DNA from: a virus
Strand: one strand, 5' to 3'
Virus record (IMG/VR): IMGVR_UViG_3300023223_000518
Span: 1 to 61,570 of that record
DNA length: 61,570 bases
A model generated the notes under the pieces. It saw only the letters and a list, made by a program, of their open reading frames with translations. It had not been told where the DNA came from and ran no database searches. Below, one piece after another: positions 3,325 to 56,751 of the stretch (position 1 is the first letter of the stretch; each line of letters starts with the position of its first letter). The translations under genes were made by a program, and so were the position numbers.

Positions 3325-3451
3325 GAATACACCCAGCCGCGGGTGGCGGCATCAACGAGCGGGCGTCGGATCGTGACCGGACGAATTCGACAACACAACC
3401 GCGCGGTGAGTCTTGCGGCCGGAATCTTGCAAGGCTCGTCGGGAGATCGAC

Positions 3452-3589
3452 ATGGATAATCTGATGAAGTTCTCAGCGGCGTTGCTCGCCGCGATCTGCG
3501 TCGGATACGCATCCGGCTCGTCCCACTACGGCGTTGCAACGTTCGCGGTGTGTGTGCTGATCGCTGATCCAATCCGAAAGCGAAGTTGA
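3452..3589 (+). CDS. small membrane protein (45 aa), holin-like candidate
   Basis: Below the ORF-track size cutoff. GGGAGATCGAC (3441-3451) abuts the ATG. The product MDNLMKFSAALLAAICVGYASGSSHYGVATFAVCVLIADPIRKRS is hydrophobic. Its stop overlaps the next ATG (TGATG). Confidence 0.5.
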   Translation: MDNLMKFSAALLAAICVGYASGSSHYGVATFAVCVLIADPIRKRS

Positions 3590-3972
3590 TGAGACTAATG
3601 ATCGCAGCACTTGCACTTCTGTTGATGGCGGCGACGGCAGGATGCGATGAGAAGACGACGATAACCGAATGGCCTGGACCGCCAACGCACGACCCGAGTG
3701 AAAGATATCGGCAATGGGAGTTTTTTCCAGACGAAATCGGCCCCGACTACTTTCATATCAAGAACCGCCGAAACGGGTTGGTGAGATCGGTCAACACGCT
3801 CAAGCAGGCAGAGCACGAATATCTGCGGTGGAAGGCGAGGGCGCCGGATGCGGACTTGACCATCCAGCGATGTAGCGACGCACGCGGGGAAGTCGTCGCA
3901 ACGATGAACGTTTCACATTTGGACGAAAAACCATGCGACAGATTATTGCCTTACTCACCGTTCTCTCATTGA
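3589..3972 (+). CDS. putative lipoprotein (spanin-like candidate)
   Basis: N-terminus MRLMIAALALLLMAATAGCDEK reads as a signal peptide followed by a lipobox Cys. Confidence 0.6.
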   Translation: MRLMIAALALLLMAATAGCDEKTTITEWPGPPTHDPSERYRQWEFFPDEIGPDYFHIKNRRNGLVRSVNTLKQAEHEYLRWKARAPDADLTIQRCSDARGEVVATMNVSHLDEKPCDRLLPYSPFSH

Positions 3973-4676
3973 TGGCGGCGACGACGAACGCCGACAGCTT
4001 TCGAGTCGTCACGCAAACTCGGCACGCCAGCCGTTATGACCGCGCCGCAGAGGCCGCGTATGTGAAACAAGCGAAGTTCTGGTTTGGTGAGGACTGGTCG
4101 ACCACGGCCAAAGAACTCTCGGACCGCTGCGAGATCACCGTGCGTGAAGGCCGCATCGGTAACGGGGGCGCAACGACGTTTACTCATCACGAGAACGGGG
4201 CAGTCGATGGTTGGGACATGCGAGTTCAGGGAACGCCGGAACGGCTCGCGGACAGCATCATCCCGCACGAAGTCAATCACGTTGTTTTCCATGCACATTT
4301 CGGAAGACCACTCCCTCGATTTTTCGATGAAGGCGCGGCAGCACTTTGGGAACACCCAGCCGATATCGCAAACTATCAGGCGTTTCTTCGGCAGGCAAAC
4401 GGTAAATTCATCGCGATGCGGGACGTGATCGACGCGAAAGAATATTCCGACAACATGGAGCGTGTCGGGCTGATGTACGGCCAAGGATACTACGTGACTC
4501 GGCATCTTGTCACAAAGCACGGAGCAAAGAAGTTCATCGCGTTCCTGACCGACGACCGCAAGCCGACAGAAAAGCTGAGCGATCACTTCGGCGTCACACC
4601 CGAAGAACTCGATAAGGAATGGCACACCGCCTACTATTCCGAGATGGGCCTCGGTCAACAGTGGTGCAACACTTGA
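3933..4676 (+). CDS. secreted zinc metallopeptidase-like protein (HExxH, MA-clan-like)
   Basis: Signal peptide MRQIIALLTVLSLMAATTNADS. HEVNH motif within SIIPHEVNHVVFHAHF, with a downstream FFDEGAAALWE. Confidence 0.55.
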   Translation: MRQIIALLTVLSLMAATTNADSFRVVTQTRHASRYDRAAEAAYVKQAKFWFGEDWSTTAKELSDRCEITVREGRIGNGGATTFTHHENGAVDGWDMRVQGTPERLADSIIPHEVNHVVFHAHFGRPLPRFFDEGAAALWEHPADIANYQAFLRQANGKFIAMRDVIDAKEYSDNMERVGLMYGQGYYVTRHLVTKHGAKKFIAFLTDDRKPTEKLSDHFGVTPEELDKEWHTAYYSEMGLGQQWCNT

Positions 4677-4700
4677 CGAACCTACCATCCGGCACGGTTC

Positions 4701-5171
4701 GTGCCGGCAAGAATCGGAACAGGCCAGCCGCTGGACGGTCCGCGCATCCCGCGTTCGACACCGTCCATCCCGCGCAACGACCGGCCGAAATATCCGGCTC
4801 CGCCATTCGGAAAGAATCCCGGTGACAAGGCACGAACGGACGCGATCAACAAACTGAATGCGCGACTCAAGGCGCAAGAGAATCGAGTTGACGCAATTGC
4901 ACAAGACATCGTTTCAATCAGGAAAGACTTGGTTGAGATTCACAAAGGGATGAAGCGACTCAGCGATAAGTTCGACACGATTGAAGCCCTGATTAAGAAC
5001 ATTCCGAAAGGCAAGGATGGCCGCGATGGAAAAGACGGGAAAGACGTTCCAACGAAAAGCATCATGCTGATCATCACGCGTGATGGGAAAGAAAAATTCC
5101 GGGTGGATGTTCCACTTAACAAAGCGAAGAAGGTAGTTGAAATCCCGCTGGAGAGTATCCGCGGGAAATGA
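4701..5171 (+). CDS. hypothetical protein with coiled-coil and short GKDGRDGKDGKD collagen-like stretch
   Basis: 156-aa ORF. The GTG start is uncertain. Confidence 0.45.
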   Translation: MPARIGTGQPLDGPRIPRSTPSIPRNDRPKYPAPPFGKNPGDKARTDAINKLNARLKAQENRVDAIAQDIVSIRKDLVEIHKGMKRLSDKFDTIEALIKNIPKGKDGRDGKDGKDVPTKSIMLIITRDGKEKFRVDVPLNKAKKVVEIPLESIRGK

Positions 5172-5201
5172 AGCAATCAGTTTCTTAGGAGAACGACAAA
5201 C

Positions 5202-5686: not shown

Positions 5687-6035
5687 CGGCCTTGCCCCGA
5701 ACGGTGACATCAAGCCGTGGTGGAAGTCGTGGCAAAAAAAGCGAGAGTTCGACATGGAACTTGAGGAGGATTTGCTTCGCAAGAACTTCGACATGCCGAA
5801 GCCAACTCCAATGCGAGACGTCAATAGCAACAACAACACCGGCATCGGGGCGAGGGGTTTGATTGGCGTCGCTCTTGCCGCAGCGATTCCCGGTCTTGGC
5901 GGTGCATACATGGCGTATCAGGCGATGAACAAGGAGCCGACAGTCATCGAAAAGAGGGTTGCCGGCCCACCGGGCAAGACGGTTCCAGGCACGAACACCG
6001 ACTTAAAACTCAAGACGCCGATAATCCGAGAATGA
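5679..6035 (+). CDS. membrane protein (118 aa)
   Basis: AGGAGGA SD lies 2 nt upstream of the ATG at 5679. Predicted TM helix GLIGVALAAAIPGLGGAYMAY. Confidence 0.5.
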   Translation: MGSGLAPNGDIKPWWKSWQKKREFDMELEEDLLRKNFDMPKPTPMRDVNSNNNTGIGARGLIGVALAAAIPGLGGAYMAYQAMNKEPTVIEKRVAGPPGKTVPGTNTDLKLKTPIIRE

Positions 6036-6121: not shown

Positions 6122-7339
6122 ATGCCTGCGTTCGTCACGCTTTCCGGCGCAACTTCACCGATCCGGAGCGACAGACGAATGCCCTCGACATGCACATTCT
6201 GCGACGCGGAACACGATGCCGACTCGTGCGATAATTGCGAAACGCTCGCCGCGCTGTATGAAGACGATCGGCCGATCGCCGGCGGTGGCGACGTTCAATA
6301 CGGCTCGCGGCTCGCAGTGAAGCAACAGCTTGACGGCTCGGCGATGACAGCCGATTTCATCATCGTCACCCGACAGAACAACGAGCCGAATCTTCACGGC
6401 AACATGGTGCAGATCGGCAAGACGAAATTTGGTACAGGACTCGGTCTTTCCTATCATGAGATCGCGCGGCCCGTCTTATTGGAGCATGGATTCGACTTCC
6501 CGTTTCCAATCGGTGTGAGCGAAGATCAGCGTGGTAACTATTCGGTCAAGCGGCAAGGCTCAAAAACGGCGACGGCGACGGTCCGATTCTCGCAAGCCCT
6601 ACCTGAAGCGGAACTCGTGTTCGCGATGCTGGATGAGGGCACGATCCGGATGGCGTCGATTGGCTTCCGTATCCTGAAAGCAATGCGGCTTAAACAGACG
6701 CCGGCTCCGGCGCTTGAGGCCGGCGTCGAGGATTGGACGTTCGGTCGAGGGCACGATTTCGTTGAGACGCTCTTGCTTGAATGGTCGATCGTACATTCCG
6801 GAGCCGATGCCGGATCGCTGAGACAATGTCTTGATGCTGGCAAGGTGGGCACATGCCGTATTCCGGATACGTTGAAGAGATCATTCGAGCGATACGCAGC
6901 GACGACGCGGCCGCAAGGCATAGGCGTTGAATTCACCGGCAGTACAGACGACGCTCGGCGAACATTGGTCACACCGACAGCGCAGGCAAGGATTGCTCTC
7001 GACGAGATGGGTGTAACAATACCGGAGCCGCTCACACTGCGAACGCGCAGATTGACGCTCCGGATGAATTATCCGGAAGAATTGTGCGATACACCAGCGC
7101 TGACCGCCGCGCTGCAGGCGGAAGCCGATAGATTCGTAGCTGCGGAAGCCGCGAGGCTTGATCGGGAAATTCTCGTAGATTCCCCGAATGCGGTTGACAC
7201 GAATGAACCGAATGACTCAACTCAGCCCGTAGTGGAGATCGACGCCCTTACGATTGGTCAGTGTTTGGCCGCTTCAATCACGCCGGAGACCAAGCCGTCA
7301 TTCGGTTCGATTGGAGAAGAAATCGCATCATCGTTGTAG
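6122..7339 (+). CDS. prohead protease (HK97 family) with C-terminal scaffold-like extension
   Basis: Protease-like core (PVLLEHGFDFPFPIGV, ASIGFRILKA, LLEWSIVHSGADAGS). Sits directly upstream of the capsid gene. The start is uncertain. Confidence 0.7.
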   Translation: MPAFVTLSGATSPIRSDRRMPSTCTFCDAEHDADSCDNCETLAALYEDDRPIAGGGDVQYGSRLAVKQQLDGSAMTADFIIVTRQNNEPNLHGNMVQIGKTKFGTGLGLSYHEIARPVLLEHGFDFPFPIGVSEDQRGNYSVKRQGSKTATATVRFSQALPEAELVFAMLDEGTIRMASIGFRILKAMRLKQTPAPALEAGVEDWTFGRGHDFVETLLLEWSIVHSGADAGSLRQCLDAGKVGTCRIPDTLKRSFERYAATTRPQGIGVEFTGSTDDARRTLVTPTAQARIALDEMGVTIPEPLTLRTRRLTLRMNYPEELCDTPALTAALQAEADRFVAAEAARLDREILVDSPNAVDTNEPNDSTQPVVEIDALTIGQCLAASITPETKPSFGSIGEEIASSL

Positions 7340-7357
7340 AGCCGGAGTCGATCTCAA

Positions 7358-9109
7358 ATGTCGAAATACAAGTCAAACATCGGCGGCGGTTGGGGCATCA
7401 ATCCTTTCGGGCTTGGAACGCTCTGCGATGGAGCAAGTGATGCGGCCGCAAACGGCGGTGCGAGCAACGCGGCCGGCGGCGGGACCGTAACGCCGGCTGC
7501 GGACCCGGCAACTCCACCGGCCAACGCGATCGCAAACACTGCCCTCTCGCCCGATCAATTGCAATCGATCATCGGCCCGGTTCAAACGGCTGTGCGTGAA
7601 ACCGTTACGCAGACAATCGAGCCGCTTCGAACCGATATCGCTGGATTGCGAACGGCCGTTGACGGATTGGAATCATGGCGGGAAGAAGTCACCCAAGCGG
7701 CCGCGGCGAATCGCCCCGCACACAATCAAGCGTCCGCGCTGTTCGGCGGCGGCGGCGAGCAACGGCACGGCGTGCGAACCGGTGAAGACCCGATGACGAG
7801 CCGCGGGTTTTCAATGATTCGTGTGATCGGGTTGCGGCAAGGGCGATTGAGCCCCGACACGTGCAAGCCGGAATTGGAAATGAGTCAGATGTTGCACGAC
7901 GTCTACGCAACGGGCGGCTTCATACCGGAGGGTGGACTCAGTTCGATTCTCGTGCCGCTGGGCGTCGGCATGTTGCCATCAGAAGAATACTCGGAAGGTG
8001 GATTGACTACCCAACAACTCACCGGAATCCGTCAATACATGTCGGCTGGCGTTGCAGGCATTGATCCCGACCGCTGGAAGTGGACCGTTCAACAGCTTGG
8101 CATTGCGGGTGGATTCTTCAGCGGGGCATCAACACCCACGGTCCGGCAAGACTTGTCGCAATTCGACGATACGGGACTCGGTAACTTTCTCGGCGCGACG
8201 ACCAAAGGCGAGTTGATCGAACTCATTCGCGCGATGGAAGTATTCAGCCGCGTCGGCGCAACGAATCTCACGCTGCCCCCGAATGGCCGGCTGATGTTCG
8301 ACAAGCACACGGGAGCCGTTACCGCATTCTGGGTCGGGGAAGTTCCAAGCGACAAGTCGATCCCGACGATCACAGCTTCAGAGCCGACGACTGGCTCACT
8401 GACGTTGCTCGCCAAAAAACTGGCCGTGCTGGTCAAGCTGCCGAACGAGTTGATCCGATTCGCAACGAGCGAACTTGAGGCGTTCATCCGCAACGACATG
8501 GCGAGAACGATGTCACTGGAAGCTGACTTGGCCATGATTGAAGGCGAAGGCGGAACGAGAATCCGAGGGTTGCTTTCGTCGGAAATTCAAGAGCGGCAAC
8601 CCGGGACGGAAGCCGCTAACGGCGATACGTTCGAACCGGAAGACGTCACGCTCGCCAAGTCGGATATCGAGGAAGCGAACCACGACACCGAAGACGGCTC
8701 GTTCTTCTGGACGATGCGACCGAAGATGTGGGCCAACATTCGAAACCGACGCGCTGCCGCTCATACAGCGGCTGTGTTCGATGGTCCGTGGCTGTTCCCA
8801 ATAAATCGCGACGACATTGGAAGCGGGCAAGCGGCGCGATTGGACGGCGATCCTGTTGTGCGATCGACGCAGATTTCCAACACGCGAGCGAAGGGATCGT
8901 CAAGCGATCTCACTTTTATTCTATATGGAGTCGCTCGACACTATCTGATCGCTCGCGCTGGCGTGATTGAATTCGCGACGTCAGTCGAAGGTGACACGCC
9001 GTTCCAAACCGATCAGACTTGGATTCGCGCGATTCAGCACATCGACGCCGGAGCGCGATATGAAAACGCGTTCGGATTTATGGACGACATCGATCAAGAC
9101 TTGCCGTAA
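7358..9109 (+). CDS. major capsid protein, HK97 fold, with long N-terminal delta/scaffold domain
   Basis: 583 aa. Coiled-coil N-terminus, then a capsid-like core (LAKKLAVLVKLPNELIRFA). Sits after the protease and is followed by a strong terminator one gene downstream. Confidence 0.8.
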   Translation: MSKYKSNIGGGWGINPFGLGTLCDGASDAAANGGASNAAGGGTVTPAADPATPPANAIANTALSPDQLQSIIGPVQTAVRETVTQTIEPLRTDIAGLRTAVDGLESWREEVTQAAAANRPAHNQASALFGGGGEQRHGVRTGEDPMTSRGFSMIRVIGLRQGRLSPDTCKPELEMSQMLHDVYATGGFIPEGGLSSILVPLGVGMLPSEEYSEGGLTTQQLTGIRQYMSAGVAGIDPDRWKWTVQQLGIAGGFFSGASTPTVRQDLSQFDDTGLGNFLGATTKGELIELIRAMEVFSRVGATNLTLPPNGRLMFDKHTGAVTAFWVGEVPSDKSIPTITASEPTTGSLTLLAKKLAVLVKLPNELIRFATSELEAFIRNDMARTMSLEADLAMIEGEGGTRIRGLLSSEIQERQPGTEAANGDTFEPEDVTLAKSDIEEANHDTEDGSFFWTMRPKMWANIRNRRAAAHTAAVFDGPWLFPINRDDIGSGQAARLDGDPVVRSTQISNTRAKGSSSDLTFILYGVARHYLIARAGVIEFATSVEGDTPFQTDQTWIRAIQHIDAGARYENAFGFMDDIDQDLP

Positions 9110-9209
9110 TCACACAGCTCCTTCGCCCCACCCTATCGATTAGGTCGATCTCTCGGTGGGGTCGGGGCAAGGTTTTTCAAACCATACTTTCGACAGCCGG
9201 AGCAAAACG

Positions 9210-9688: not shown

Positions 9689-9702
9689 GTGAGATCGCCC
9701 CT

Positions 9703-11676: not shown

Positions 11677-11786
11677 TTCAGCGATTGGTTGAATGGCTGC
11701 GGTGCCGACGTGAGTCTCGCGCGAAAGAGAAGCGGCTCCGGCGTGACATCGACCAACTCCGGCGGATGCGAGATCGACGCAAATGA
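11673..11786 (+). CDS. small basic hypothetical protein (37 aa)
   Basis: ATGA-coupled at both ends. Confidence 0.3.
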   Translation: MIQRLVEWLRCRRESRAKEKRLRRDIDQLRRMRDRRK

Positions 11787-14567: not shown

Positions 14568-14586
14568 GCGCAACGAGATCGACAGG

Positions 14587-15084: not shown

Positions 15085-15602
15085 GAAGTCTGCATCCTGA
15101 CGTTATACCCGCATCACGCCAAGCGCATGATGTGATCCTGAATCTACTAGCGACCGATGAAGACAATCGCGAGCCGCGGCGTTTGAATCAAGCGCTGCGA
15201 AAACTTCTCCGCTCTTATTCCGGTCGATGGCCAGACGAGTTCCGTGACGTTGTCCGTCGCTTGCAAGAGCACATCGACTTCTCTGATTTCGCGTCCGAAG
15301 AATTCTTGAGCGTGGCCGATGAATTCGGTTCGCTGTGTCTAGCCCTTAACGACGAGGACATTCCCGACAATGAAAGCAGACGATCCGATCGTTTCGAAAG
15401 CCGTCGATCTCCCAAGCGGAGCGAAGTGTACCGTTCGCCTCATATCGTGGCCGGCGTGGGTGAAAGTATTGGAGACGGCATCAGCGCACATCGGAAAACA
15501 GAGCCTGAAAGTGGCGCTACAGCCGATGCTGAGATTCTGGAATCAGAGAACAGAGGCGGCCTCGGATGGATCCCTGGCAGCCCCGGTGACGATCCCGGAT
15601 GA
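15081..15602 (+). CDS. hypothetical protein; only the first ~97 codons look protein-like
   Basis: ORF overlaps 15370..15945 in another frame. Its overlapping tail is R/S-rich, which looks like off-frame sequence. Confidence 0.35.
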   Translation: MRSLHPDVIPASRQAHDVILNLLATDEDNREPRRLNQALRKLLRSYSGRWPDEFRDVVRRLQEHIDFSDFASEEFLSVADEFGSLCLALNDEDIPDNESRRSDRFESRRSPKRSEVYRSPHIVAGVGESIGDGISAHRKTEPESGATADAEILESENRGGLGWIPGSPGDDPG

Positions 15603-23600: not shown

Positions 23601-24072
23601 CCGTTGTTCGATGCCGGTTGAGAATGGATCGTGTTATGAGGTAACCGTTGTCGCGTGCGGATCATCGATCTACGCAACGGCGCGCGGCCCATCGGGCGGT
23701 TGTGAATTGATCGTCGACGACGACTTCAACATCAACGCATCCAAGCATGGAATGATGGGCATTCAAGACGGCGATCCGAATACCGACTGGACCCGGATGT
23801 CGTTCGATGATTTCTGCATAACGAAGTCTTGCGAGTCCGGAACAGCCTCGATCTCGCCTTCAGAATTTAGCGCGAATACGCTCACCGATTCGATCAGTTT
23901 CGGTAGCGGATCGGAGGGCGGTTGCGGCACATGTCAATTCACCTGGAACGGCGTGAATTGGATTCCGTCTGCTTTCGCGTGTTGTCCGTTGTGGGATTGC
24001 AGCGAGCCGTTTGGCGATGGGGATTTCATCGGTGAAATTCGGGTCGTGCCATGCACGATCGAACCAATTTGA
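20629..24072 (+). CDS. tail tip / host-specificity protein
   Basis: 1147 aa, directly after the tape measure. Pro-rich linker (PGFPPAFPVVPFPPRPLPPIDPDPP), followed by a Cys-rich, lectin-like C-terminal region. Confidence 0.7.
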   Translation: MTRPITAAAATEGAKVTGAFPRLILQVNWTGTTGTKFYAEEALTSPVIAEGRILKFGQSSLEMRGGRIDQQASMPIKISDVDGVIRGLMNTSPGVQSKNAFVYLFYEGTTWPDDAVTIFGGVLTTPMSWRENDPAWDLVIRGFEQHFNRDLGFVMNRIDFPEVDCSQCEGEIIPIAYGRPVRRVPACVIDRPGQGYLIQTLPFCGSNQELCLNVTCAQGGFDCGPTITVIVGWPTFWEAITGFFTGPDDNCLTITGRGSVLAAGNIVGFFGSGGIQYIMIEGSDLPDYTEPPPDAESRVGHPICFQEQDGSFKMLMVSMWTFRGDNIVVIEKGDLDVVTGSGWKIGRWPGIVPHWPPGTPVGEKGDWTYAINFYPIESVERVEARASVQQPGGGSGYVWAQYNRSFYSVNVDDKSFNGVLGRGALEPGIATVTTAFAPTQAGFEEENVWVTMNGINEVVGGPAIENPAMVMLDIITKKYLGGILPPFVRDSSFLTAALEIPTRFAFALLERTELHNVISDLATQATLIYFWDQGKAQVKKLEIVLEVADSVITITESNREMGSFVMEEIDVKQFTTEMEGRFKLAIPSPQIKLARKSSDAIIAYGNKRDELDLWAYQAASSVAFVTEFYLSFRLHNNRTLKCTTFLNGLQLQPGDTITWDIKDGESNQIINVLGRVRSVSHHPGNPERGEMERIDLSADVRLFSFQIQVNVPADDTCDQVAGLFFGSAGPNFQKLYVRSDGVHTMYVLAPGFAEIAGGGSNLNNPVETETDGNAPGFPPAFPVVPFPPRPLPPIDPDPPFDSGSFSVGSDFEPPSLSASISPPPPLFSSTLTTTRSLTDTGTPPCDCGLDTFTDVDDRNLCGAGAGFGNPHQPEVGTWCCECDWASGSAGCGTPGKINSQFTIFQNRARLNCGRGIELMGCGSSDVTVSLNVCMPIEGSDPFEGTAIGGVAFRMSGCGEALTGWGALLISDGRNSFRLYRFNADGTWTEIARCSMPVENGSCYEVTVVACGSSIYATARGPSGGCELIVDDDFNINASKHGMMGIQDGDPNTDWTRMSFDDFCITKSCESGTASISPSEFSANTLTDSISFGSGSEGGCGTCQFTWNGVNWIPSAFACCPLWDCSEPFGDGDFIGEIRVVPCTIEPI

Positions 24073-24079
24073 GATCGAC

Positions 24080-25616: not shown

Positions 25617-25755
25617 ATCGCGGTTTACAATCAAGGCGATATCGCATAAAGTGCTTCGCGCCGGATCAGCGGATGGGCCCAGCGTTGCTTGGCGAACCAT
25701 TCATGGATGGTAAGCGGCCTCAGGGTCATCCGTTGACCGGCTTTCGAGATCGACG

Positions 25756-37431: not shown

Positions 37432-37494
37432 TCACCGCGTAAACCCCTCGCCATAACGGCAGGGCATCTCTTTCAAACCGGAGGGTGATCAATC

Positions 37495-38751: not shown

Positions 38752-38931
38752 GTGTTAGTCCTGTCGAGAAAACGGAACGAATCGATCATCATCGCCGAGA
38801 ACATCGTCATCACCGTGGTTGAGGTCCGCGGCGATAAGGTCCGGCTCGGCATTGAAGCGCCCCGCGAAATCTCGATCCATCGATCAGAGGTTTTTGACGC
38901 AATCCGAAAAGAACTCGCAGCGAGCGCTTGA
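38752..38931 (+). CDS. csrA: carbon storage regulator CsrA/RsmA homologue
   Basis: GTG start, 5 nt after an AAGGAGGGA SD. (M)LVLSRKRNESIIIAENIVITVVEVRGDKVRLGIEAPREISIHRSEVFDAIRKE aligns along its whole length with E. coli CsrA ([52 protein letters not shown]). Confidence 0.85.
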   Translation: MLVLSRKRNESIIIAENIVITVVEVRGDKVRLGIEAPREISIHRSEVFDAIRKELAASA

Positions 38932-39479: not shown

Positions 39480-39694
39480 ACGGTCACCATAAATGTCCTG
39501 TTGACGGATGCCAGCGGCTGATTAAGGATCGATTCGCATTCTGTCATACCCACTGGTACAAGCTGACTGACGACGAGCGTGCGGCTGTTTGGAGATCGTA
39601 TCACAAGCACGGAGCCGGCACGGCAGAGCACTTCGCTACGCTTAGCATGATGGCGGAGCGAATCGACCTACGGCAACGGAGATCGATTGGATGA
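39473..39694 (+). CDS. zinc-finger small protein (73 aa)
   Basis: Contains HHKCPVDGC...FCHTH. Confidence 0.5.
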   Translation: MLDGHHKCPVDGCQRLIKDRFAFCHTHWYKLTDDERAAVWRSYHKHGAGTAEHFATLSMMAERIDLRQRRSIG

Positions 39695-40509: not shown

Positions 40510-40598
40510 CCTTCCCCCGCGCGGCGACGATGCCGGTTGCTTGCACGTTCCGGCCCAACAGCCGTCGCCGCGCTTCATTCTTTTTGGAGATCGACACG

Positions 40599-41441: not shown

Positions 41442-41521
41442 CGACGAGCATGAAATGAGATATCGTTTCGAGCGGCGAAAGCGCCGCTCATCTCTTACAC
41501 CTGATTCAAGGGAGATCGACC

Positions 41522-44397: not shown

Positions 44398-44592
44398 ATG
44401 GATGCTGACGTCTGGCGCTGGATTGCTTTAATCGTGACAATAGTGGCCGCAACGTGGCGGTTGTCGTCGATGCTTGCCGGGATCAGAACTGAACTGGAAG
44501 TGCATCGTGCGCAGATCGATGGTAGGCTGAATGCGCACGAGGAGAAACTGACAGATCATAGTTCAAGGCTCGGCAGATTCGAAAGCGGCTGA
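44398..44592 (+). CDS. small membrane/coiled-coil protein (64 aa)
   Basis: TM helix WRWIALIVTIVAATW. TGATG coupling to the methyltransferase gene. Confidence 0.45.
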   Translation: MDADVWRWIALIVTIVAATWRLSSMLAGIRTELEVHRAQIDGRLNAHEEKLTDHSSRLGRFESG

Positions 44593-46221: not shown

Positions 46222-46320
46222 ACGCCGCGGTGTGTGGAAGTGCCGCTCGACCCGTGCCGGCGATCAGTCCCGCCGGCGCGGGGAGGCGTTTTTCAGGACT
46301 CACCCTAAGGGAGATCGACA

Positions 46321-46512: not shown

Positions 46513-46531
46513 ACATCTGGAGAGATCAACG

Positions 46532-47419: not shown

Positions 47420-47455
47420 CCGCTTTTCTTTTCTCTTGACCTTGGGAGATCGACC

Positions 47456-49063: not shown

Positions 49064-49127
49064 GGTCGACCGTCCGCTTTTTCGACCGACCCTATGATAC
49101 GATCGACAACCCTACGGAGATCGACCG

Positions 49128-49436: not shown

Positions 49437-49510
49437 TGGTGCCATGAATCGCGTGAGTGTCACGCTGATATTCTAATTGAACTCGTGAATCATACCGAGA
49501 TCGACTGACG

Positions 49511-50227
49511 ATGCCGAGTAAGCGACCACGCAAGGGCCGATGCGGAGCGAAACTCCGAAAGAAGCCCGGGCAGTTCTGTTTGGCGTGGCCGATCCGCGGT
49601 ACGAAGCGATGCCGGCTCCACGGCGGATTGACCCCCTCCGGCTTCGCGTCGCCTCACTTCAGACACGGTAAATATTCACGACATCTCAGCGGTGCATTCG
49701 CTGAAGCATTCGCCACCCGGCTTGATGATCCGGAGTTGCTTTCGCTCCGCGATGATATCGCGATCGCTGATACCCGATTGCTGGAACTCGTCGGGCAAGC
49801 CCAAAGCGATTCGAGCGCGGCGAATTGGAAGCGATGCGGCGAATTGGTTCGTGAGTACGATCGGATCAAAGCAGACACGATCGAAGCGACAGAGAAGTAC
49901 AAGTTGCAGGCTCCGATCATGGTAGAGTTGTGGTCGTTGATCTATGCCGGAGAGATCGCCGAACAGAAATGGGAGGAAGCGAGAAAACAGAATCTGTTCA
50001 AAAGCCGGCTGATCGACTCGGAACGTAAGCGGATGGTCGAGGCCGGGTTGATGATCGCAATCGATGATGCCCGCGGATTGGTTGCGAATTTGTGCCATCT
50101 GATAAGAGATCACGTGCATGACCCTGAAATCCTCACGCTACTTAGCGACGGCATCGCTCGAATTACTGGAGAGCGACGCAACGCGATTGTTGAGGCCGAC
50201 CCCGGAAACGGGAAAGAGCGAGATTGA
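49511..50227 (+). CDS. putative terminase small subunit
   Basis: Basic N-terminus with CGAK...CRLHGG. Directly upstream of and overlapping the large terminase. GAGATCGAC (49497-49505) lies 5 nt upstream of the ATG. Confidence 0.4.
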   Translation: MPSKRPRKGRCGAKLRKKPGQFCLAWPIRGTKRCRLHGGLTPSGFASPHFRHGKYSRHLSGAFAEAFATRLDDPELLSLRDDIAIADTRLLELVGQAQSDSSAANWKRCGELVREYDRIKADTIEATEKYKLQAPIMVELWSLIYAGEIAEQKWEEARKQNLFKSRLIDSERKRMVEAGLMIAIDDARGLVANLCHLIRDHVHDPEILTLLSDGIARITGERRNAIVEADPGNGKERD

Positions 50228-51923
50228 AGCGGCTCGCGCCGGTGACCCGTGGCCGCTCGTCAAACTTCAATGGGGCGATGTGCGCTTCGATCTCGGTCAA
50301 CGGCAATTGATCGAAGGCGTTTGCGATCCGGAGATTCGTGAGGTGTTCGTGAAAGGGAATACCGGATGCGGCAAGGGAGCGGCCGCGGCGGTTGCGATTT
50401 GCCTGTACTTTGCGATCTGGCCCGATGCGAAATGCATCATCACCAGAGACACCGCTGAGACAGCGAAGCGGGTCGCGTTTGGCGAGATTAAAAAGTGGTT
50501 CTTGCGGATGGCGGAGCCGCCCCGGGTCGATCTGCTCAATCCGCTCTCGGAATCGATCAACGACGGGACTGAGCATTTCATCAAGACGGCGAACCCCGAC
50601 TCGGATGAAGGCTTTCACGGCGTTCACTCGGAAGGTGGGCATACGCTGTTCTGGTTTGACGAAGCGACGGCCGCGGCGCTAGAGAGTCGATACAAAGCGG
50701 CCGATACCCAAGCGCAGAAATTCGTAGCGACGGCGAATCCGCGGACGACGGCCGGCAAGTTCCGTGATGCATTCCCGGCGAGCGATACGGATTCGACGCA
50801 AAAGGTGTTGACCGAAAAAGGCTGGCGTTACTGCATTACGATCAGCGGTGAAGATTGCACGAACGTCAAAGAGAAATGCCTTCGAAACCCGATCGCCCCA
50901 ATTGGCGGAATCAAGATCGGCCGGCGGACCTACAAGCATGGTGATCGGCTCGCACCGGATGACTTCGTTCGCGTGCGTGCAATCATCCCAGGTCAGACAT
51001 GCTTCGATGAGTGGAAAGCGCTTGAGCAATCGCCAGACCCGTTCGTGCGGAACGTCTTCGCGTTCGCCAAGTTCCCGGATGAAGACCCAGAGACGGCGCT
51101 TGTGAAGCGGTCATGGACTGCGCGAGCCGGCGAGAGGCATACGAAATGGGGTCGACTGTGGCGGATCGCGAACAAGCGAACAAAGATCCTCAGACCGAAC
51201 CCGCTCCGGAATGTTCAGATCGAAAAGAGCAAGCCGCGAAGACCCGGCACATACATGAGCCTTGCTCGCATGATGCCACTGCAGGCCGGTGGGCTGGACG
51301 TGGCGGCATCTAAGCACGGAGATCATTCGATCCTCACGCTTGGCGGAGATGGCGGCATCCTCGTCCAGCTCGGCTGTCAGTTCGCCGATACTCAGCAAAC
51401 GGTTGATTGGGTGATCGAAACGTGCAAGCGGTATGGCATCGACATTCTGAAGCGAGGATTCCCGATCGGCATCGATTGGGGCGGTGGCTACGGTAACGCC
51501 GTCGGCGATCCGCTCCGCAAGCGTGGCGCTTCGATCATCCGCATCAACAGCAATGCAACTCCGGATGACACTAAACGATTCGGCAACAAGCGGGCGGAGA
51601 TGTACGGCATGTTCGCCGATCGGATCGACCCTGATGGACAGTGGGCGGAATCGCCGTTCGCGATCCCCGATGACCTGGAATTGCACGCGGAGTTGAGCGC
51701 GCCGGAAAAGATATTCATCGGTTACGATGGCGGCAAGTTCAACATAACGCCGAAGACCCGCGGGCAGATGAGCGATTCACTCAAGGCGCGATGGAAGGGC
51801 CAGACGATTCAAGAGAAGTTGGGGCGATCACCGGATAAGGGAGATTCGGCCGTCCTGTTTTACGAAGCGCATCGCCATCGTGGCGTTGACCTGGACGAAG
51901 CACTTGAGATGGGGATGTTTTGA
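50118..51923 (+). CDS. terminase large subunit
   Basis: GNTGCGKG is Walker A. LFWFDEA is Walker B. ATANP is the coupling motif. The C-terminal region is RNase H-like (GLDVAASKHGDHS). The start overlaps the upstream gene by 110 nt. Confidence 0.8.
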   Translation: MTLKSSRYLATASLELLESDATRLLRPTPETGKSEIEAARAGDPWPLVKLQWGDVRFDLGQRQLIEGVCDPEIREVFVKGNTGCGKGAAAAVAICLYFAIWPDAKCIITRDTAETAKRVAFGEIKKWFLRMAEPPRVDLLNPLSESINDGTEHFIKTANPDSDEGFHGVHSEGGHTLFWFDEATAAALESRYKAADTQAQKFVATANPRTTAGKFRDAFPASDTDSTQKVLTEKGWRYCITISGEDCTNVKEKCLRNPIAPIGGIKIGRRTYKHGDRLAPDDFVRVRAIIPGQTCFDEWKALEQSPDPFVRNVFAFAKFPDEDPETALVKRSWTARAGERHTKWGRLWRIANKRTKILRPNPLRNVQIEKSKPRRPGTYMSLARMMPLQAGGLDVAASKHGDHSILTLGGDGGILVQLGCQFADTQQTVDWVIETCKRYGIDILKRGFPIGIDWGGGYGNAVGDPLRKRGASIIRINSNATPDDTKRFGNKRAEMYGMFADRIDPDGQWAESPFAIPDDLELHAELSAPEKIFIGYDGGKFNITPKTRGQMSDSLKARWKGQTIQEKLGRSPDKGDSAVLFYEAHRHRGVDLDEALEMGMF

Positions 51924-52822: not shown

Positions 52823-52862
52823 AATGCCGCTATCACATTTCATGCCCTTGGGAGATCGACTC

Positions 52863-53060
52863 ATGTTTATACGAATTGAGAACGCGGGAACGCTGCCTTC
52901 GTTTGAAGCAACGCAAGCGGCTGGCAAAATTGCGACGCAGCTTGGGATTCCTGTGATCGTCAGCATACTTCATCGCGATGTCGCCATCCGTCCCGACGAG
53001 TGCCCGCATGAAGTTTATCGGAAAGCGTTTCCCGATTTGCATTCGGAGATCGAGGAATGA
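52863..53060 (+). CDS. hypothetical protein (65 aa)
   Basis: GGGAGATCGAC (52850-52860) lies 2 nt upstream of an internal ATG of track ORF 52797..53060. Confidence 0.5.
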   Translation: MFIRIENAGTLPSFEATQAAGKIATQLGIPVIVSILHRDVAIRPDECPHEVYRKAFPDLHSEIEE

Positions 53061-53239
53061 AAGCAACCGTCAAATGCCCGCGCTGTCGCCGATACGGAAC
53101 CGTCGCCGGCGATCTGTTCTACTGCCCGCAATGTAAAGCCGGATACGACGACGATCCGGACGAGGGCGGAAATTATCATTCTGTCGATCCCTCGCGCCGA
53201 ATGCACAATGAGGAAACGCATCGGAGGCCGCGGCGATGA
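53057..53239 (+). CDS. zinc-ribbon small protein (60 aa)
   Basis: GGAGATCGAG (53045-53054) lies 2 nt upstream of the ATG. Contains CPRC...CPQC. Confidence 0.5.
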   Translation: MKATVKCPRCRRYGTVAGDLFYCPQCKAGYDDDPDEGGNYHSVDPSRRMHNEETHRRPRR

Positions 53240-53451: not shown

Positions 53452-53455
53452 AACC

Positions 53456-54776: not shown

Positions 54777-55588
54777 CCTACTTCCGCGGCCGCAAGAACG
54801 GCAGGAGTTGGCGAATCGACGTCGCCGACGTATTGACGTGGAAACCCGCGAACTCGAAAACACCGCGGCTGATCTTCGGAGACCCGCCGTTCAACATCGG
54901 CCAGCAATACGACGAGCATGATGACAAGATGTCAGAAGGTGACTATCAGCGCTTCACGAATGGATGGGTCGCTCGGGTGCGATCTCTCGCCGGTGTTGAT
55001 GGATGCATCATCGCGTTGCATGTGCCGTGGCAGTTGACCGGCTTCGTGAAGCGGATCGCCGGGCAAGGGCTGGAACAGATCGCGGAATTGATCATTCATT
55101 ACCGCTTTGGTCAATGCGGCCGCTCGAATTGGATTGGCGGGCATTCGCATTGCCTGATCTTCAAGTCACCCGGCGAGCATAGATGGAACCCCGACGCCGT
55201 GCTTGTGCCCTCTGACCGCGCGACGACGTATGCGGACAAACGCATTGACGATACCGAGCGGGGCGGCGAGCGGCTTCCCTGTGACGTGTGGGGCATTCCC
55301 AGCGACGGGCCGTACTGGGGTCGGGTTCAGGGCAACGATGGCGAGCGATGGTGCATCAAGACGGGCGGTCTCGTCGATCATCCGAATCAGTTACGGGAAT
55401 TGTATCTAGCCCGGTTGATCAGAGCGTACACTGACCCCGGCGATCTCGTACTTGATCCCTTCGTGGGATCGGGAACCACTGGCGTTGTGGCGATCGCTCT
55501 GGGGCGAACCTTCCGCGGCTGTGAGATCGGCGAGCGGACGGCCGCAAGCGCAGCAAAGCGGATTAAGAAAGGAGCGGTGAGATTATGA
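54773..55588 (+). CDS. beta-class N6A/N4C DNA methyltransferase
   Basis: FGDPPFN is motif IV, and it precedes VLDPFVGSGTTG (motif I). Confidence 0.8.
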   Translation: MTYFRGRKNGRSWRIDVADVLTWKPANSKTPRLIFGDPPFNIGQQYDEHDDKMSEGDYQRFTNGWVARVRSLAGVDGCIIALHVPWQLTGFVKRIAGQGLEQIAELIIHYRFGQCGRSNWIGGHSHCLIFKSPGEHRWNPDAVLVPSDRATTYADKRIDDTERGGERLPCDVWGIPSDGPYWGRVQGNDGERWCIKTGGLVDHPNQLRELYLARLIRAYTDPGDLVLDPFVGSGTTGVVAIALGRTFRGCEIGERTAASAAKRIKKGAVRL

Positions 55589-55764
55589 GCAGATCACGGC
55601 AAGCGACTGAGAACGAAATGGCATGGGCGAATGACGATCAAGACGATACCGACTTTGACAACAGAACGGGGATGAGCGTCAAACAAGCGCGGACATTGCA
55701 GGCGCGCTACGACGAACTCAAGAAGCGATACGACGAACTCAAAGCGAACGAAGATCGAATATGA
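55585..55764 (+). CDS. hypothetical acidic/coiled-coil protein (59 aa)
   Basis: Below the track cutoff. ATGA-coupled at both ends. Confidence 0.4.
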   Translation: MSRSRQATENEMAWANDDQDDTDFDNRTGMSVKQARTLQARYDELKKRYDELKANEDRI

Positions 55765-55994
55765 AATCATTCGAACATCCGGGCATCACTGTTTCAACGG
55801 CTTCGATTCGGCGCCTGACGGAAGGCATCACGCGCGCTCAAAAAGCTGTGCAAAGGTTTGCCGATCAATTCAAGCGAGCCACGATCCATGCTGTCGACGT
55901 GGACCGCTTCAGTATGGAGTTGAGATTGTCCTACGAAACCGATCGGCGCATCCGCCGGCGGATCAAACGCAAACTTAAGGAGATCGATCGATGA
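55761..55994 (+). CDS. hypothetical protein (77 aa)
   Basis: ATGA-coupled ORF. Confidence 0.45.
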   Translation: MKSFEHPGITVSTASIRRLTEGITRAQKAVQRFADQFKRATIHAVDVDRFSMELRLSYETDRRIRRRIKRKLKEIDR

Positions 55995-56461
55995 TGCATA
56001 ACAACGAGCTTGTGTGCGGCGTGATCTGGGCCGTGATCTTCGCGGCGCTATCGCTTCCGTGGACTTGCGCGATTATCGGCCGAACTGTCGGCAAGTTCTT
56101 CTCGTCGTCCGCATCTTTCATTCGATCCCTCGAAATCACGGTTGAAGACGTCTACGGGCTGCAAGAGCCGGATCGATTGCAGGAGTCAATCAAGCCGATG
56201 TCCCCACCGCCACCGCCGAGAACATACAATACGGCGGGCGACTTCATCGGGCCGCGAAGCCGCGACGACGGCCGCAAGATGCGTCGGCTGAAGTCCGGAG
56301 CGGTGATTTCAGAACCGATCGAAGAACGCAAATGGGTCGAATCGCGAACCCTTTCGGAAGCGCTCGACGTCGCAAAGTTCTCAGTTGCGGAATTCAAGAA
56401 CGCAATCAGCAAAGCAAATGGAGATCGACAATGTGGAATGTTGACAGAAAAGAATCGATGA
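55991..56461 (+). CDS. membrane protein (156 aa)
   Basis: GGAGATCGAT (55979-55988) lies 2 nt upstream of the ATG. N-terminal TM helix. Confidence 0.5.
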   Translation: MMHNNELVCGVIWAVIFAALSLPWTCAIIGRTVGKFFSSSASFIRSLEITVEDVYGLQEPDRLQESIKPMSPPPPPRTYNTAGDFIGPRSRDDGRKMRRLKSGAVISEPIEERKWVESRTLSEALDVAKFSVAEFKNAISKANGDRQCGMLTEKNR

Positions 56462-56751
56462 GCCCCGATGGTTTTCTCCGCTTGCACATCCAAGAAGATG
56501 GAGACGTTCGCCTAACTGTCGGGCAAGGCGCAGTGAATTCAGGATGTACTCGTCTCGCAAGTGTGGAATTCTGTACGCCGATGACAGGCGAAGGCGGATC
56601 AAGCCGAACATGGGCCGCGTTGCGTTTGCTGGCGATCGCGATGGCGAAAGACAACGCGGACCGCGAGCAAGACGGCCGGCGGCGCGAATTCCCCGGCGCT
56701 GAGATTCTTGATGACTCCCCGGCGTTCTTCCTTGCGGAGATCGGGAGATGA
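56431..56751 (+). CDS. hypothetical protein (106 aa)
   Basis: GGAGATCGAC (56420-56429) lies 1 nt upstream of an internal ATG of track ORF 56332..56751. Confidence 0.5.
   Translation: MWNVDRKESMSPDGFLRLHIQEDGDVRLTVGQGAVNSGCTRLASVEFCTPMTGEGGSSRTWAALRLLAIAMAKDNADREQDGRRREFPGAEILDDSPAFFLAEIGR

What the first reader, a model, noticed from the sequence alone, without database searches (positions are those of the whole stretch)
3441..56745. Conserved (G)GAGATCGAC element 0-5 nt upstream of at least 13 start codons
Reading the plus strand, I found the exact 9-mer GAGATCGAC, usually extended to GGAGATCGAC or GGGAGATCGAC, directly before start codons.

Exact copies (motif coordinates, then the start codon; spacers run 0-5 nt):
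- 3441-3451, ATG 3452
- 11770-11778, ATG 11783
- 14575-14583, ATG 14587
- 24071-24079, ATG 24080
- 25746-25754, ATG 25756
- 40586-40595, ATG 40599
- 41510-41520, ATG 41522
- 46309-46319, ATG 46321
- 47444-47454, ATG 47456
- 49116-49125, ATG 49128
- 49497-49505, ATG 49511
- 52850-52860, ATG 52863
- 56420-56429, ATG 56431

One-mismatch versions precede:
- GTG 32123
- ATG 39691, 46532, 53057, 55991 and 56748

I saw only about four exact copies inside coding sequence, all as Glu-Ile-Asp codons, at about 7235, 32740, 42809 and 60344. A random 9-mer is expected well under once per strand in 61 kb.

The element marks early or DNA-metabolism genes, the small-ORF block, and the carbohydrate 'moron' genes. 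It does not mark the core virion genes. The capsid gene instead carries the reverse complement, GTCGATCTC, at 7347-7355.

The motif includes an SD-like GGAG, the GGA core recognised by CsrA-family proteins, and GATC and TCGA palindromes. The phage itself encodes a CsrA and two DNA methyltransferases. A fixed SD-plus-spacer cassette could therefore define a co-regulated translational regulon. It also proved useful for choosing start codons and for finding ORFs under 60 aa.
Basis: partly seen in the sequence, partly recalled or inferred. Interest (0 to 1): 0.72.

Follow-up and report, generated by a model that had tools for sequence, protein, structure and literature searches.

The report
Shared start-codon motif with antisense partner
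About twenty genes of this uncultivated phage begin with the same short sequence just before the start codon, and the exact complement of that sequence is conserved in the capsid-gene leader and in a hairpin loop just after the capsid gene, which suggests that an RNA pairing switch controls their translation.

Summary
GAGATCGAC occurs 22 times (2.2 expected). Seventeen copies are on the coding strand, and 13 of those end 0-5 nt before an ATG (0.28 expected). Seven or eight 1-mismatch copies sit the same way. The only close relative (NODE_123; 64-78% protein identity, DNA 65-77% identical in patches) has the same motif at orthologous and non-orthologous starts.

It is not an extended Shine-Dalgarno. 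Five exact copies lack GG. Predicted pairing with a canonical 16S tail is weak (-7.5 against -18.4 kcal/mol), and shuffled spacers pair as well.

The closest known thing is the start-associated sequence (SAS) of Cluster K mycobacteriophages, whose function is unknown.

New here: the reverse complement is placed non-randomly in both phages.
- It lies in the capsid gene's leader, where it is predicted to pair with a motif copy about 100 nt upstream.
- It lies in the apical loop of a strong hairpin after the capsid gene; the stems differ and the loop is identical.

Most likely mechanism (inferred, confidence about 0.4): RNA-RNA pairing between late transcripts and the motif-bearing initiation regions.

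Rivals: a protein reader such as the phage CsrA, which both phages encode, or merely a favoured ribosome-binding cassette.

The parts
3443..3451 (+). motif GAGATCGAC, spacer 0, ATG 3452 (45-aa ORF)
11770..11778 (+). motif, no GG upstream, spacer 4, ATG 11783 (234 aa)
14575..14583 (+). motif, no GG upstream, spacer 3, ATG 14587 (165 aa, weak sulfotransferase match)
24071..24079 (+). motif, no GG upstream, spacer 0, ATG 24080 (145 aa, DUF6171); overlaps the stop of the upstream gene
25746..25754 (+). motif, no GG upstream, spacer 1, ATG 25756 (246 aa, glycosyltransferase family 2)
40587..40595 (+). motif, spacer 3, ATG 40599 (280 aa); the orthologous start in NODE_123 also has the motif
41512..41520 (+). 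motif (GGGAGATCGACC), spacer 1, ATG 41522 (622 aa); the orthologous start in NODE_123 also has the motif
46311..46319 (+). motif, spacer 1, ATG 46321 (63-aa ORF)
47446..47454 (+). motif (CTTGGGAGATCGACC), spacer 1, ATG 47456 (535 aa, AAA_23); the orthologous start in NODE_123 also has the motif
49117..49125 (+). motif, spacer 2, ATG 49128 (102 aa, weak DUF4326 match)
49497..49505 (+). motif, no GG upstream, spacer 5, ATG 49511 (238 aa, upstream of the large terminase); the NODE_123 ortholog lacks the motif
52852..52860 (+). motif (CTTGGGAGATCGAC), spacer 2, ATG 52863 (65 aa)
56421..56429 (+). motif, spacer 1, ATG 56431 (106 aa)
5189..5197 (+). 1-mismatch copy GAGAACGAC, spacer 4, ATG 5202 (93 aa)
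5745..5753 (+). 1-mismatch copy GAGTTCGAC, spacer 0, ATG 5754 (93 aa)
9691..9699 (+). 1-mismatch copy GAGATCGCC, directly after a terminator-like hairpin and T run, spacer 3, ATG 9703 (214 aa)
39679..39687 (+). 1-mismatch copy GAGATCGAT, spacer 3, ATG 39691 (PD-(D/E)XK exonuclease)
46522..46530 (+). 1-mismatch copy GAGATCAAC, spacer 1, ATG 46532 (295 aa, phrog_6247 'DNA topoisomerase')
53046..53054 (+). 1-mismatch copy GAGATCGAG, spacer 2, ATG 53057 (60 aa)
55980..55988 (+). 1-mismatch copy GAGATCGAT, spacer 2, ATG 55991 (156 aa)
56737..56745 (+). 2-mismatch copy GAGATCGGG, spacer 2, ATG 56748 (102 aa)
7235..7243 (+). motif copy inside the 3' end of the gene upstream of the capsid gene (Glu-Ile-Asp codons). 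It is predicted to pair with 7347-7355, closing a domain of about 100 nt. The same arrangement occurs in NODE_123.
7343..7357 (+). capsid-gene leader GGAGTCGATCTCAA before ATG 7358; it contains the exact reverse complement of the motif at 7347-7355. Conserved in NODE_123 as GGGAGTCGATCTCA-ATG.
9125..9168 (+). hairpin 16 nt after the capsid-gene stop codon (fragment dG -31 kcal/mol), followed by GGTTTTTC. The apical loop 9140-9152 (UUAGGUCGAUCUC) carries the anti-motif at 9144-9152.
15403..15416 (+). GTCGATCTCCCAAG, the exact reverse complement of the 14-nt extended motif CTTGGGAGATCGAC. It lies 33 nt into ORF 15370-15945 and is not conserved in NODE_123, so it may be chance.
38752..38931 (+). 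phage CsrA homologue (candidate protein reader)
   Evidence: the sister phage also has it

Best explanation
The element is a lineage-specific start-associated sequence. It is a 9-12 nt mRNA element, (G)(G)GAGATCGAC(C), fixed 0-5 nt before the ATG of about 20 genes. These are replication and recombination genes plus accessory genes inserted among the virion genes. The GAG or GGAG part serves as the Shine-Dalgarno. The rest is a shared address tag.

The most likely reader of the tag is RNA. The exact complement, GUCGAUCUC, is carried by late transcripts at two conserved places:
- the leader of the major capsid gene;
- the apical loop of the strong hairpin that ends the capsid transcript.

Pairing of these sequences with the motif-bearing initiation regions would cover the Shine-Dalgarno and spacer. 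That would couple translation of the tagged genes to the level of capsid mRNA. The capsid leader itself is held closed by a motif copy about 100 nt upstream.

Shown: the positions, strand bias, conservation, complementarity and predicted structures.

Inferred: that the RNAs pair in the cell, and in which direction regulation runs.
For: Enrichment and position:
- 22 copies against 2.2 expected.
- 13 of the 17 + strand copies lie 0-5 nt before an ATG, against 0.28 expected.
- 20 of the 21 starts with at most 1 mismatch use ATG.
- Tagged genes follow longer gaps than other genes (median 52 against 9.5 nt), so they are mostly not translationally coupled.

Selection:
- The sister phage NODE_123 (loci L001, L138, L267) is only 65-77% identical in DNA, and only in patches.
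- It has 16 + strand copies, 12 of them at starts. These include three orthologous starts and many non-orthologous accessory genes.

Not a ribosome-only signal:
- Five exact copies have no GG upstream.
- The predicted duplex with a canonical 16S tail is -7.5 kcal/mol, against -18.4 for a full Shine-Dalgarno. 52% of spacer shuffles pair as well or better.
- A related phage (loci L136 and L140; large-terminase identity 50%) uses a different start-fused motif, GA[AG]CCG-ATG: 12 copies on the coding strand and none on the other.

Complementary partner:
- The anti-motif lies directly before the capsid ATG in both phages.
- A motif copy 92-99 nt upstream pairs with it, with pair probability 0.95-1.0 in both phages.
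- The hairpin after the capsid gene has different upper stems in the two phages but the same 13-nt loop, AGGTCGATCTCTC.
- Predicted loop-to-initiation-region duplexes are 9-13 bp, with mean -18.0 kcal/mol against -9.6 for other starts.
- All 9 anti-motif copies in the two phages lie in the virion-structural part. None lies in the sequenced replication and accessory parts, 26 kb in the window and 32 kb in NODE_123.
- Two relatives without the motif have unrelated loops in the hairpin after their capsid genes.
Against: - Only two genomes carry the system, so there is no covariation between motif and loop, only co-conservation.
- The upstream pairing partner at 7235 lies in conserved Glu-Ile-Asp codons, so the protein could explain its conservation.
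- No expression data exist. It is unknown whether the hairpin accumulates as a stable RNA, or whether a 9-12 bp interaction works in this unknown host.
- Three of the five anti-motif copies in the window are inside coding sequence and may be chance. The null expects 0.6-0.8 and 3 were seen, P about 0.02-0.04.
- The L136 phage shows no matching loop for its own motif.
- In Cluster K mycobacteriophages, subcluster K1 has an anti-SAS hairpin loop, but TM4 and Pixie do not. An antisense partner is therefore not a general feature of start-associated sequences.
- The duplex energies follow from the shared 9-mer and are not independent evidence.
Confidence: 0.4

Rival explanations
1. The element is the same kind of start-associated translational operator, but it is read by a protein. 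The candidates are the phage CsrA, another phage RNA-binding protein, or a sequence-specific endoribonuclease that acts on Shine-Dalgarno regions as T4 RegB does on GGAG. The complementary copies near the capsid gene would then be a separate, local structure.
For: - CsrA is encoded at 38752-38931.
- CsrA is conserved at the same position in the sister phage, about 85% identical over the first 50 residues, and is followed directly by a motif-bearing gene.
- No CsrA was seen in the sequenced parts of relatives that lack the motif.
- Most copies contain GGA inside GGAG.
- Authors working on Cluster K SAS also favour an unknown host or phage factor (PMC3203893).
Against: - Known CsrA recognition centres on GGA, usually in a hairpin loop (my own knowledge of the family). 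It does not explain the invariant ATCGAC.
- Five exact copies have GAG but no GGA.
- Initiation regions with the motif are not more structured or more exposed than others.
- A protein that binds GAGAUCGAC would not bind its complement, so the two conserved anti-motif sites are left unexplained.
Confidence: 0.3
2. There is no dedicated reader. The sequence is simply a favoured stand-alone ribosome-binding cassette for genes that are not translationally coupled. It would be spread and kept uniform by descent, by gene conversion, or by recombination at gene boundaries, so that accessory genes arrive with or acquire the same front end.
For: - Tagged genes mostly follow gaps or terminator-like hairpins.
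- The two phages carry different accessory genes that each begin with the motif.
- The other genes of the phage use GGAG or GGAGA at the same distance from the start.
- Planctomycetes are reported to have few Shine-Dalgarno genes, so a strong cassette could pay off (PMC5397173).
Against: - Nine to twelve identical bases are kept in two genomes whose flanks have diverged to no detectable similarity. This needs selection on the spacer itself.
- The spacer gives no predicted gain in 16S pairing.
- 9-12 bp is short for homologous recombination, and no homology breakpoints could be placed at the motif.
- This reading does not explain the conserved complementary copies.
Confidence: 0.15
3. The element is a DNA-level operator: a 9-bp site for a DNA-binding regulator, in the manner of the 13-bp stoperators of Cluster A mycobacteriophages, or a site marked by methylation of the embedded GATC or TCGA.
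For: - The site occurs in both orientations in non-coding DNA around the capsid gene.
- The phage encodes a ParB-type DNA methyltransferase.
Against: - The spacing of 0-5 nt to the ATG, the 13:0 strand bias at starts, and the fusion with GGAG all point to the mRNA.
- The conserved placement of the complement in the apical loop of an RNA hairpin whose stems have diverged is not expected for a duplex-DNA site.
- GATC occurs 764 times, as expected from composition, so it cannot mark these sites.
Confidence: 0.07
4. [quoted passage not shown]
For: - It contains GGAG at the usual distance from the start.
- The host is unknown, so its 16S tail could not be read.
Against: - With a canonical tail the duplex is -7.5 kcal/mol and needs a bulge, and shuffled spacers do as well.
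- Other genes in both phages carry long canonical Shine-Dalgarno sequences: GGAGGGTGATC at 37495 in the window, and AGGAGGTGA before the tape-measure gene of NODE_123. This argues that the host tail is canonical.
- Five exact copies lack GG.
- A related phage uses a different spacer motif.
Confidence: 0.05

Closest known systems
Start-associated sequences (SAS) of Cluster K mycobacteriophages (Pope et al. 2011, PMC3203893)
   Same: - It is a short asymmetric repeat present in 11-19 copies per genome, a few bases before start codons, in one orientation.
- It is strongly ATG-biased and lies mostly outside core virion genes.
- It contains a Shine-Dalgarno core flanked by conserved bases that cannot pair with 16S rRNA.
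- It is conserved across related phages in front of unrelated genes.
- Its function was still described as unknown in 2024-2025.
   Different: - The sequence is unrelated (GAGATCGAC against GGGATAGGAGCCC).
- It is shorter (9-12 against 13 nt) and lies closer to the start (0-5 against 3-7 nt).
- The phage is unrelated, with a probable planctomycete host.
- No extended element with 17-bp inverted repeats was found.
- Here the complement is conserved at two defined places around the capsid gene.
Antisense RNAs of phages P1/P7 (c4 RNA) and P4 (CI RNA), and sRNAs derived from 3' untranslated regions (comparison from my own knowledge; not checked in papers here)
   Same: A short sequence displayed in a hairpin loop of a phage transcript is complementary to several target sites, and those targets overlap ribosome-binding sites.
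   Different: - Those RNAs are shown experimentally to be processed and stable, and they act on one operon.
- Here nothing is known about expression, the proposed targets number about 20 across the genome, and the loop belongs to the hairpin that ends the capsid transcript.
- No Rfam family matched the window.
CsrA-regulated ribosome-binding sites
   Same: GGA-containing sites overlap the Shine-Dalgarno sequence, and the phage encodes a CsrA.
   Different: - The conserved part here is mostly outside GGA.
- Some copies have no GGA.
- No paired second site or hairpin presentation was seen.
26-bp repeat upstream of 8 genes in the Felix O1-like phage Mordin (PMC4611695)
   Same: It is another repeat before start codons that its authors likened to SAS.
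   Different: It is much longer, and no complementary partner or conservation analysis was reported.

Membership tests
Start-associated sequences (as a kind of element) | Many copies of one short asymmetric sequence within a few bases upstream of start codons | tested here: met
   There are 13 exact copies and 7-8 one-mismatch copies, 0-5 nt before starts; 0.28 exact copies are expected.
Start-associated sequences (as a kind of element) | One orientation relative to transcription, with rare reverse copies | tested here: met
   At starts the strand count is 13:0. There are 5 reverse copies in the window and 4 in the sister phage.
Start-associated sequences (as a kind of element) | Contains a Shine-Dalgarno core plus conserved positions that cannot pair with 16S rRNA | tested here: met
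   This was tested against a canonical tail only. The duplex is -7.5 kcal/mol, and 52% of spacer shuffles pair as well or better. The host 16S rRNA is unknown.
Start-associated sequences (as a kind of element) | Conserved among related phages in front of genes of different families | tested here: met
   NODE_123 has 12 start-linked copies, at 3 orthologous starts and 9 non-orthologous ones.
Start-associated sequences (as a kind of element) | Absent from the host genome | not testable with these tools
   The host is unknown. Prophages of Gimesia with a related large terminase lack the motif.
Cluster K SAS (the sequence family itself) | Consensus GGGATAGGAGCCC, with an extended element of 17-bp inverted repeats upstream of about half the copies | tested here: not met
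   The sequence is different. The upstream 70 nt show only a TTCAA(TC)TTGG extension in some copies, and no repeat family is associated with the motif.
Ordinary or extended Shine-Dalgarno | Conservation explained by contiguous complementarity to the 16S rRNA 3' tail | tested here: not met
   In addition, five exact copies lack GG.
CsrA binding site | GGA as the essential core, typically in a hairpin loop and often as two sites | tested here: inconclusive
   GGA is present in 8 of the 13 exact copies. There is no excess of structure or exposure. Binding itself cannot be tested here.
Trans-acting antisense RNA or sRNA regulon | A transcribed, stable RNA that displays a single-stranded seed complementary to the targets at their ribosome-binding sites | tested here: inconclusive
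   The seed lies in the apical loop of a conserved hairpin, and complementarity is 9-13 bp. Transcription, stability and pairing in the cell are not testable here.
Trans-acting antisense RNA or sRNA regulon | Co-variation of seed and targets between lineages | tested here: inconclusive
   Two genomes have both the motif and the loop, and two relatives have neither. No lineage has a changed motif matched by a changed loop; the L136 phage shows none.
Stoperator-type DNA operator (Cluster A mycobacteriophages) | An asymmetric site bound by the phage repressor on DNA, with a position not tied to the start codon | tested here: not met
   The distance to the ATG is fixed, and the element is fused with GGAG. 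Protein binding was not tested.

The most novel reading that the evidence does not exclude
The capsid transcript carries a built-in antisense regulator. The loop of its terminal hairpin and its own leader are complementary to a tag shared by about 20 non-virion genes. Accumulation of the most abundant late mRNA would then directly shut down, or re-programme, translation of a whole gene set, while a motif copy upstream gates capsid translation itself. This would be a genome-wide early/late translational switch based on RNA pairing in a phage. It would also give a first testable mechanism for start-associated sequences in general. The one reverse SAS copy of Cluster K1 mycobacteriophages also sits in the apical loop of a strong non-coding hairpin.
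Probability: 0.3. Interest if true: 0.85.

Novelty: new variant of a known kind. Interest (0 to 1): 0.62.

Why it matters
Start-associated sequences were described in 2011, and papers from 2024-2025 still call their role unknown. This phage gives an independent second example in an unrelated, uncultivated lineage that is probably planctomycete-infecting. So does a third motif in a related phage. Tagging a subset of start codons with a private sequence is therefore a recurring phage strategy, not a mycobacteriophage oddity.

The conserved complementary elements around the capsid gene turn a descriptive observation into a concrete hypothesis. It can be tested by mutating the tag and making compensatory changes in the hairpin loop.

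In practice, the motif also fixes start codons and reveals small genes that gene callers miss, for example 3452, 46321, 52863 and 53057.

Tried and rejected
- No close relative appeared among deposited phage genomes (megablast of 44 kb of the window), nor in IMG/VR by large terminase.
- An IMG/VR scan with GGGAGATCGACNATG gave 119 single hits. They are Glu-Ile-Asp codons or chance matches in high-GC contigs, and none is a relative.
- Scans with GAGATCGACN{85,115}GGAGTCGATCTC gave one chance hit in IMG/VR and at least 120 hits in metagenome contigs. None encodes a relative of the window's capsid, its upstream gene or its large terminase.
- Prophages of Gimesia and other Planctomycetaceae (large-terminase identity 46-49%) lack the motif, and their commonest 8-mers are not linked to starts.
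- RNAalifold on a MAFFT alignment of the two hairpins after the capsid gene was uninformative, because the stems differ in length and sequence. I relied on the single-sequence folds instead.
- I looked for a loop complementary to the GAACCG-ATG motif of the L136/L140 phage. I found only one local hairpin that pairs an upstream AUCGGUUCU with one start region.
- Rfam gave no match. The simple terminator scan misses the capsid hairpin because its loop is longer than 8 nt.
- The recombination-linker idea could not be tested. The flanks of the motif are too diverged between the two phages to place breakpoints.
- GATC methylation is rejected as a specific explanation.

Full report
**What the window is.** The first 144 bases equal the last 144. 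The contig is therefore a circular assembly of a complete genome of 61,426 bp.
- Nearly all genes are on the + strand.
- It is a tailed phage. The major capsid gene is at 7358-9109, the tape measure at 16827-20270, the large terminase at 50187-51923 and the portal at 57632-59089. A ParB-type DNA methyltransferase lies at 44592-45974.
- No deposited phage genome and no IMG/VR contig found by large terminase is close.
- Large-terminase relatives at 46-50% identity are prophages in Gimesia and other Planctomycetaceae. The host is therefore probably a planctomycete, but it is unknown.

**Check of the observation.**
- GAGATCGAC occurs 22 times, against 2.2 in dinucleotide shuffles. Seventeen copies are on the + strand and five on the - strand.
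Each ends 0-5 nt before an ATG that opens an ORF of 45-622 codons.
- Against my 84 gene calls it is the most enriched 9-mer in the 20 nt before starts: 13 starts against 0.28 expected.
- One-mismatch copies sit the same way before 5202, 5754, 9703, 39691, 46532, 53057 and 55991, and doubtfully before GTG 32123. The copy before 56748 has two mismatches.
- Twenty of the 21 starts with at most one mismatch use ATG.
- Tagged genes follow longer gaps than other genes (median 52 against 9.5 nt), and several sit right after terminator-like hairpins.
- The tagged genes include a PD-(D/E)XK exonuclease, a topoisomerase-like protein, an AAA_23 ATPase, a glycosyltransferase, a sulfotransferase-like protein, DUF6171, DUF4326 and many small ORFs. 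Core virion genes are not tagged.

**It is under selection.** The only close relative is ENA contig NODE_123 (62,859 bp), sampled here as loci L138, L267 and L001. Protein identity to the window is 78% for the large terminase, 64% for the capsid and 75% for the exonuclease.
- DNA similarity to the window is detectable only in patches, at 65-77% identity.
- Even so, NODE_123 has 16 exact + strand copies in the 54 kb sampled, and 12 of them lie directly before starts.
- Three of these are orthologous starts (window 40599, 41522 and 47456). The rest precede accessory genes that the window lacks, and the window's tagged accessory genes are likewise absent from NODE_123.
- In NODE_123 the G run shifts in some copies (GGAGAGATCGAC). 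The conserved unit is therefore GAGATCGAC, not the Shine-Dalgarno.

**It is not just a Shine-Dalgarno.**
- Other genes in the window use GGAG or GGAGA 7-10 nt before the start, so GAG/GGAG within the motif is in the right place to be the Shine-Dalgarno.
- However, five exact copies have no GG upstream.
- The predicted duplex with a canonical 16S tail is -7.5 kcal/mol and needs a bulge, against -18.4 for GGAGGUGAUC. When GGGAG is kept and the spacer is shuffled, 52% of shuffles pair as well or better.
- Both phages also contain long canonical Shine-Dalgarno sequences: GGAGGGTGATC at 37495 in the window, and AGGAGGTGA before the NODE_123 tape-measure gene. This suggests that the host tail is canonical.
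- A related phage (loci L136/L140; large-terminase identity 50%) has its own, different motif. GA[AG]CCG is fused directly to ATG, with 12 copies on the coding strand and none on the other.
- Gimesia prophages have neither motif.
- Private start tags thus recur in this phage group, with lineage-specific sequences. That argues for a lineage-specific reader rather than a general property of the ribosome.

**The complementary copies.** This is the new evidence. The reverse complement GTCGATCTC is placed non-randomly.

*(a) The capsid-gene leader.* It sits directly before the capsid ATG in both phages: GGAGTCGATCTCAA-ATG in the window, and GGGAGTCGATCTCA-ATG in NODE_123.

*(b) An upstream pairing partner.* In both phages a forward motif copy lies 92-99 nt upstream, inside the 3' end of the preceding gene. 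It is predicted to pair with the leader copy with probability 0.95-1.0, closing a domain of about 100 nt next to the capsid start. This accounts for the 'internal' copy at 7235. However, that copy lies in conserved Glu-Ile-Asp codons, so its conservation alone proves little.

*(c) A hairpin after the capsid gene.* Sixteen nt after the capsid stop in the window, and at the corresponding place in NODE_123, there is a strong hairpin (about -31 kcal/mol).
- The basal GCCC/GGGC pairs are shared between the two phages.
- The upper 8-10 pairs have unrelated sequences but are still paired.
- The apical loop carries the same 13 nt, AGGTCGATCTCTC.
- This loop can pair over 9-13 bp with the tagged initiation regions, at -15 to -24 kcal/mol for exact copies. 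The mean is -18.0 kcal/mol, against -9.6 for untagged starts. This difference follows from the shared 9-mer and is not independent evidence.

*(d) Distribution.* All nine anti-motif copies of the two phages lie in the virion-structural part. None lies in the 26 kb (window) plus 32 kb (NODE_123) of replication and accessory DNA.

*(e) Relatives without the motif.* Two of them have unrelated loops in the hairpin after their capsid genes.

*(f) A further copy.* The one at 15403-15416 is the complement of the 14-nt extended motif CTTGGGAGATCGAC. It is not conserved in NODE_123 and may be chance.

**Most likely mechanism.** The motif is a start-associated translational operator that acts in the mRNA. 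I consider RNA-RNA pairing with the complementary sequences of late (capsid) transcripts the best single explanation (0.4).
- It is the only explanation that accounts for both the tag and the two conserved complementary elements.
- The direction of regulation is inferred, not shown. It could be shut-off of tagged genes when capsid mRNA accumulates, opening of the capsid leader, or both.

**Rivals.**
- *A protein reader (0.3).* The phage CsrA is real and conserved in NODE_123 next to a tagged gene. But recognition of GGA does not explain ATCGAC, nor the copies without GGA.
- *A favoured stand-alone ribosome-binding cassette with no dedicated reader (0.15).* This fits the tendency of tagged genes to follow gaps. 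It also fits the report that Planctomycetes have few Shine-Dalgarno genes. It does not explain why the spacer is invariant, or why the complement is conserved.
- *A DNA-level operator or methylation mark (0.07).* This is unlikely. GATC occurs 764 times, as expected from composition.
- *A full-length Shine-Dalgarno (0.05).* This would need a non-canonical host 16S tail.

**Comparison with what is known.** The element works like the start-associated sequences of Cluster K mycobacteriophages.
- It shares their copy number, distance to the start, orientation, ATG bias, avoidance of virion genes, Shine-Dalgarno core with unexplained conserved flanks, and conservation in front of unrelated genes.
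- It is not a member of that sequence family, and no extended inverted-repeat element was found.
- The function of SAS is still called unknown.
- A SAS-like 26-bp repeat has been noted in a Felix O1-like phage.

**A side observation in Cluster K.** Pope et al. noted a single reverse-orientation SAS copy in each K1 phage. [quoted passage not shown] TM4 and Pixie have no such copy. So the parallel is suggestive but not general.

**Verdict.** It is a new, independent variant of a known but unexplained kind of element, and it now comes with a concrete, testable candidate partner.

**Limits.** Only two genomes carry the system, there are no expression data, and the host is unknown.

Noticed in passing
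window 1-144 and 61427-61570: The two ends are an identical 144-nt direct repeat, so the contig is a circular assembly of a complete genome of 61,426 bp.
   Followed up: no
window 1224-2280, inside ORF 752-2440: About ten diverged copies of a unit with 66-nt (22-codon) periodicity lie in a 562-aa protein that has no family match.
   Followed up: no
L136 and L140 (Logan SRR20820735_76096), e.g. L136 52, 2055, 3533, 5644, 5974, 6171, 14095: This related phage has a different start tag. GA[AG]CCG is fused directly to ATG (12 copies on the coding strand, none on the other), often as GAGG-N(1-4)-GAACCG-ATG with an upstream TCACCACCA. One copy (L140 7638) is predicted to pair with an AUCGGUUCU about 35 nt upstream.
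   Followed up: partly
Mycobacterium phage Anaya JF704106 59870-59882; Adephagia JF704105 58682-58694: The single reverse-orientation SAS copy of these K1 phages lies in the apical loop (CCUCCUAUCC, predicted fully unpaired) of a strong hairpin in a non-coding gap. TM4 and Pixie have no reverse copy within 2 mismatches. It is a possible antisense partner of SAS. I found no mention of this in the papers I read.
   Followed up: partly
L267 8881-9072 (NODE_123): The sister phage encodes a CsrA about 85% identical over the first 50 residues, at the same genome position, followed directly by a motif-tagged gene.
   Followed up: partly
window 15403-15416: GTCGATCTCCCAAG is the exact reverse complement of the 14-nt extended motif CTTGGGAGATCGAC. 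It lies 33 nt into ORF 15370-15945 and is absent from the NODE_123 ortholog.
   Followed up: yes
window 37477-37494; L138 18200-18221: These starts carry long canonical Shine-Dalgarno sequences: GGAGGGTGATC before ATG 37495, and AGGAGGTGA before the tape-measure gene of NODE_123. This hints that the host anti-Shine-Dalgarno tail is the usual one.
   Followed up: no
window 53183-53191, - strand: The 1-mismatch copy GGGATCGAC is followed after 3 nt by an ATG that opens a 54-codon ORF on the - strand. It overlaps the + strand ORF 53057-53239, which has its own 1-mismatch copy, and only one of the two is likely to be real.
   Followed up: no
L094 6631 and 6908 (IMGVR_UViG_3300043443_000324): GGAGATCGACAATGG occurs twice, 277 bp apart, in an unrelated high-GC viral contig.
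   Followed up: no
window 38324-38384: A 9-nt tandem repeat (TCGAAGAAG/C) near the 5' end of ORF 38318-38740 encodes a run of Lys-Ser-Lys. This ORF lies just upstream of the CsrA gene.
   Followed up: no
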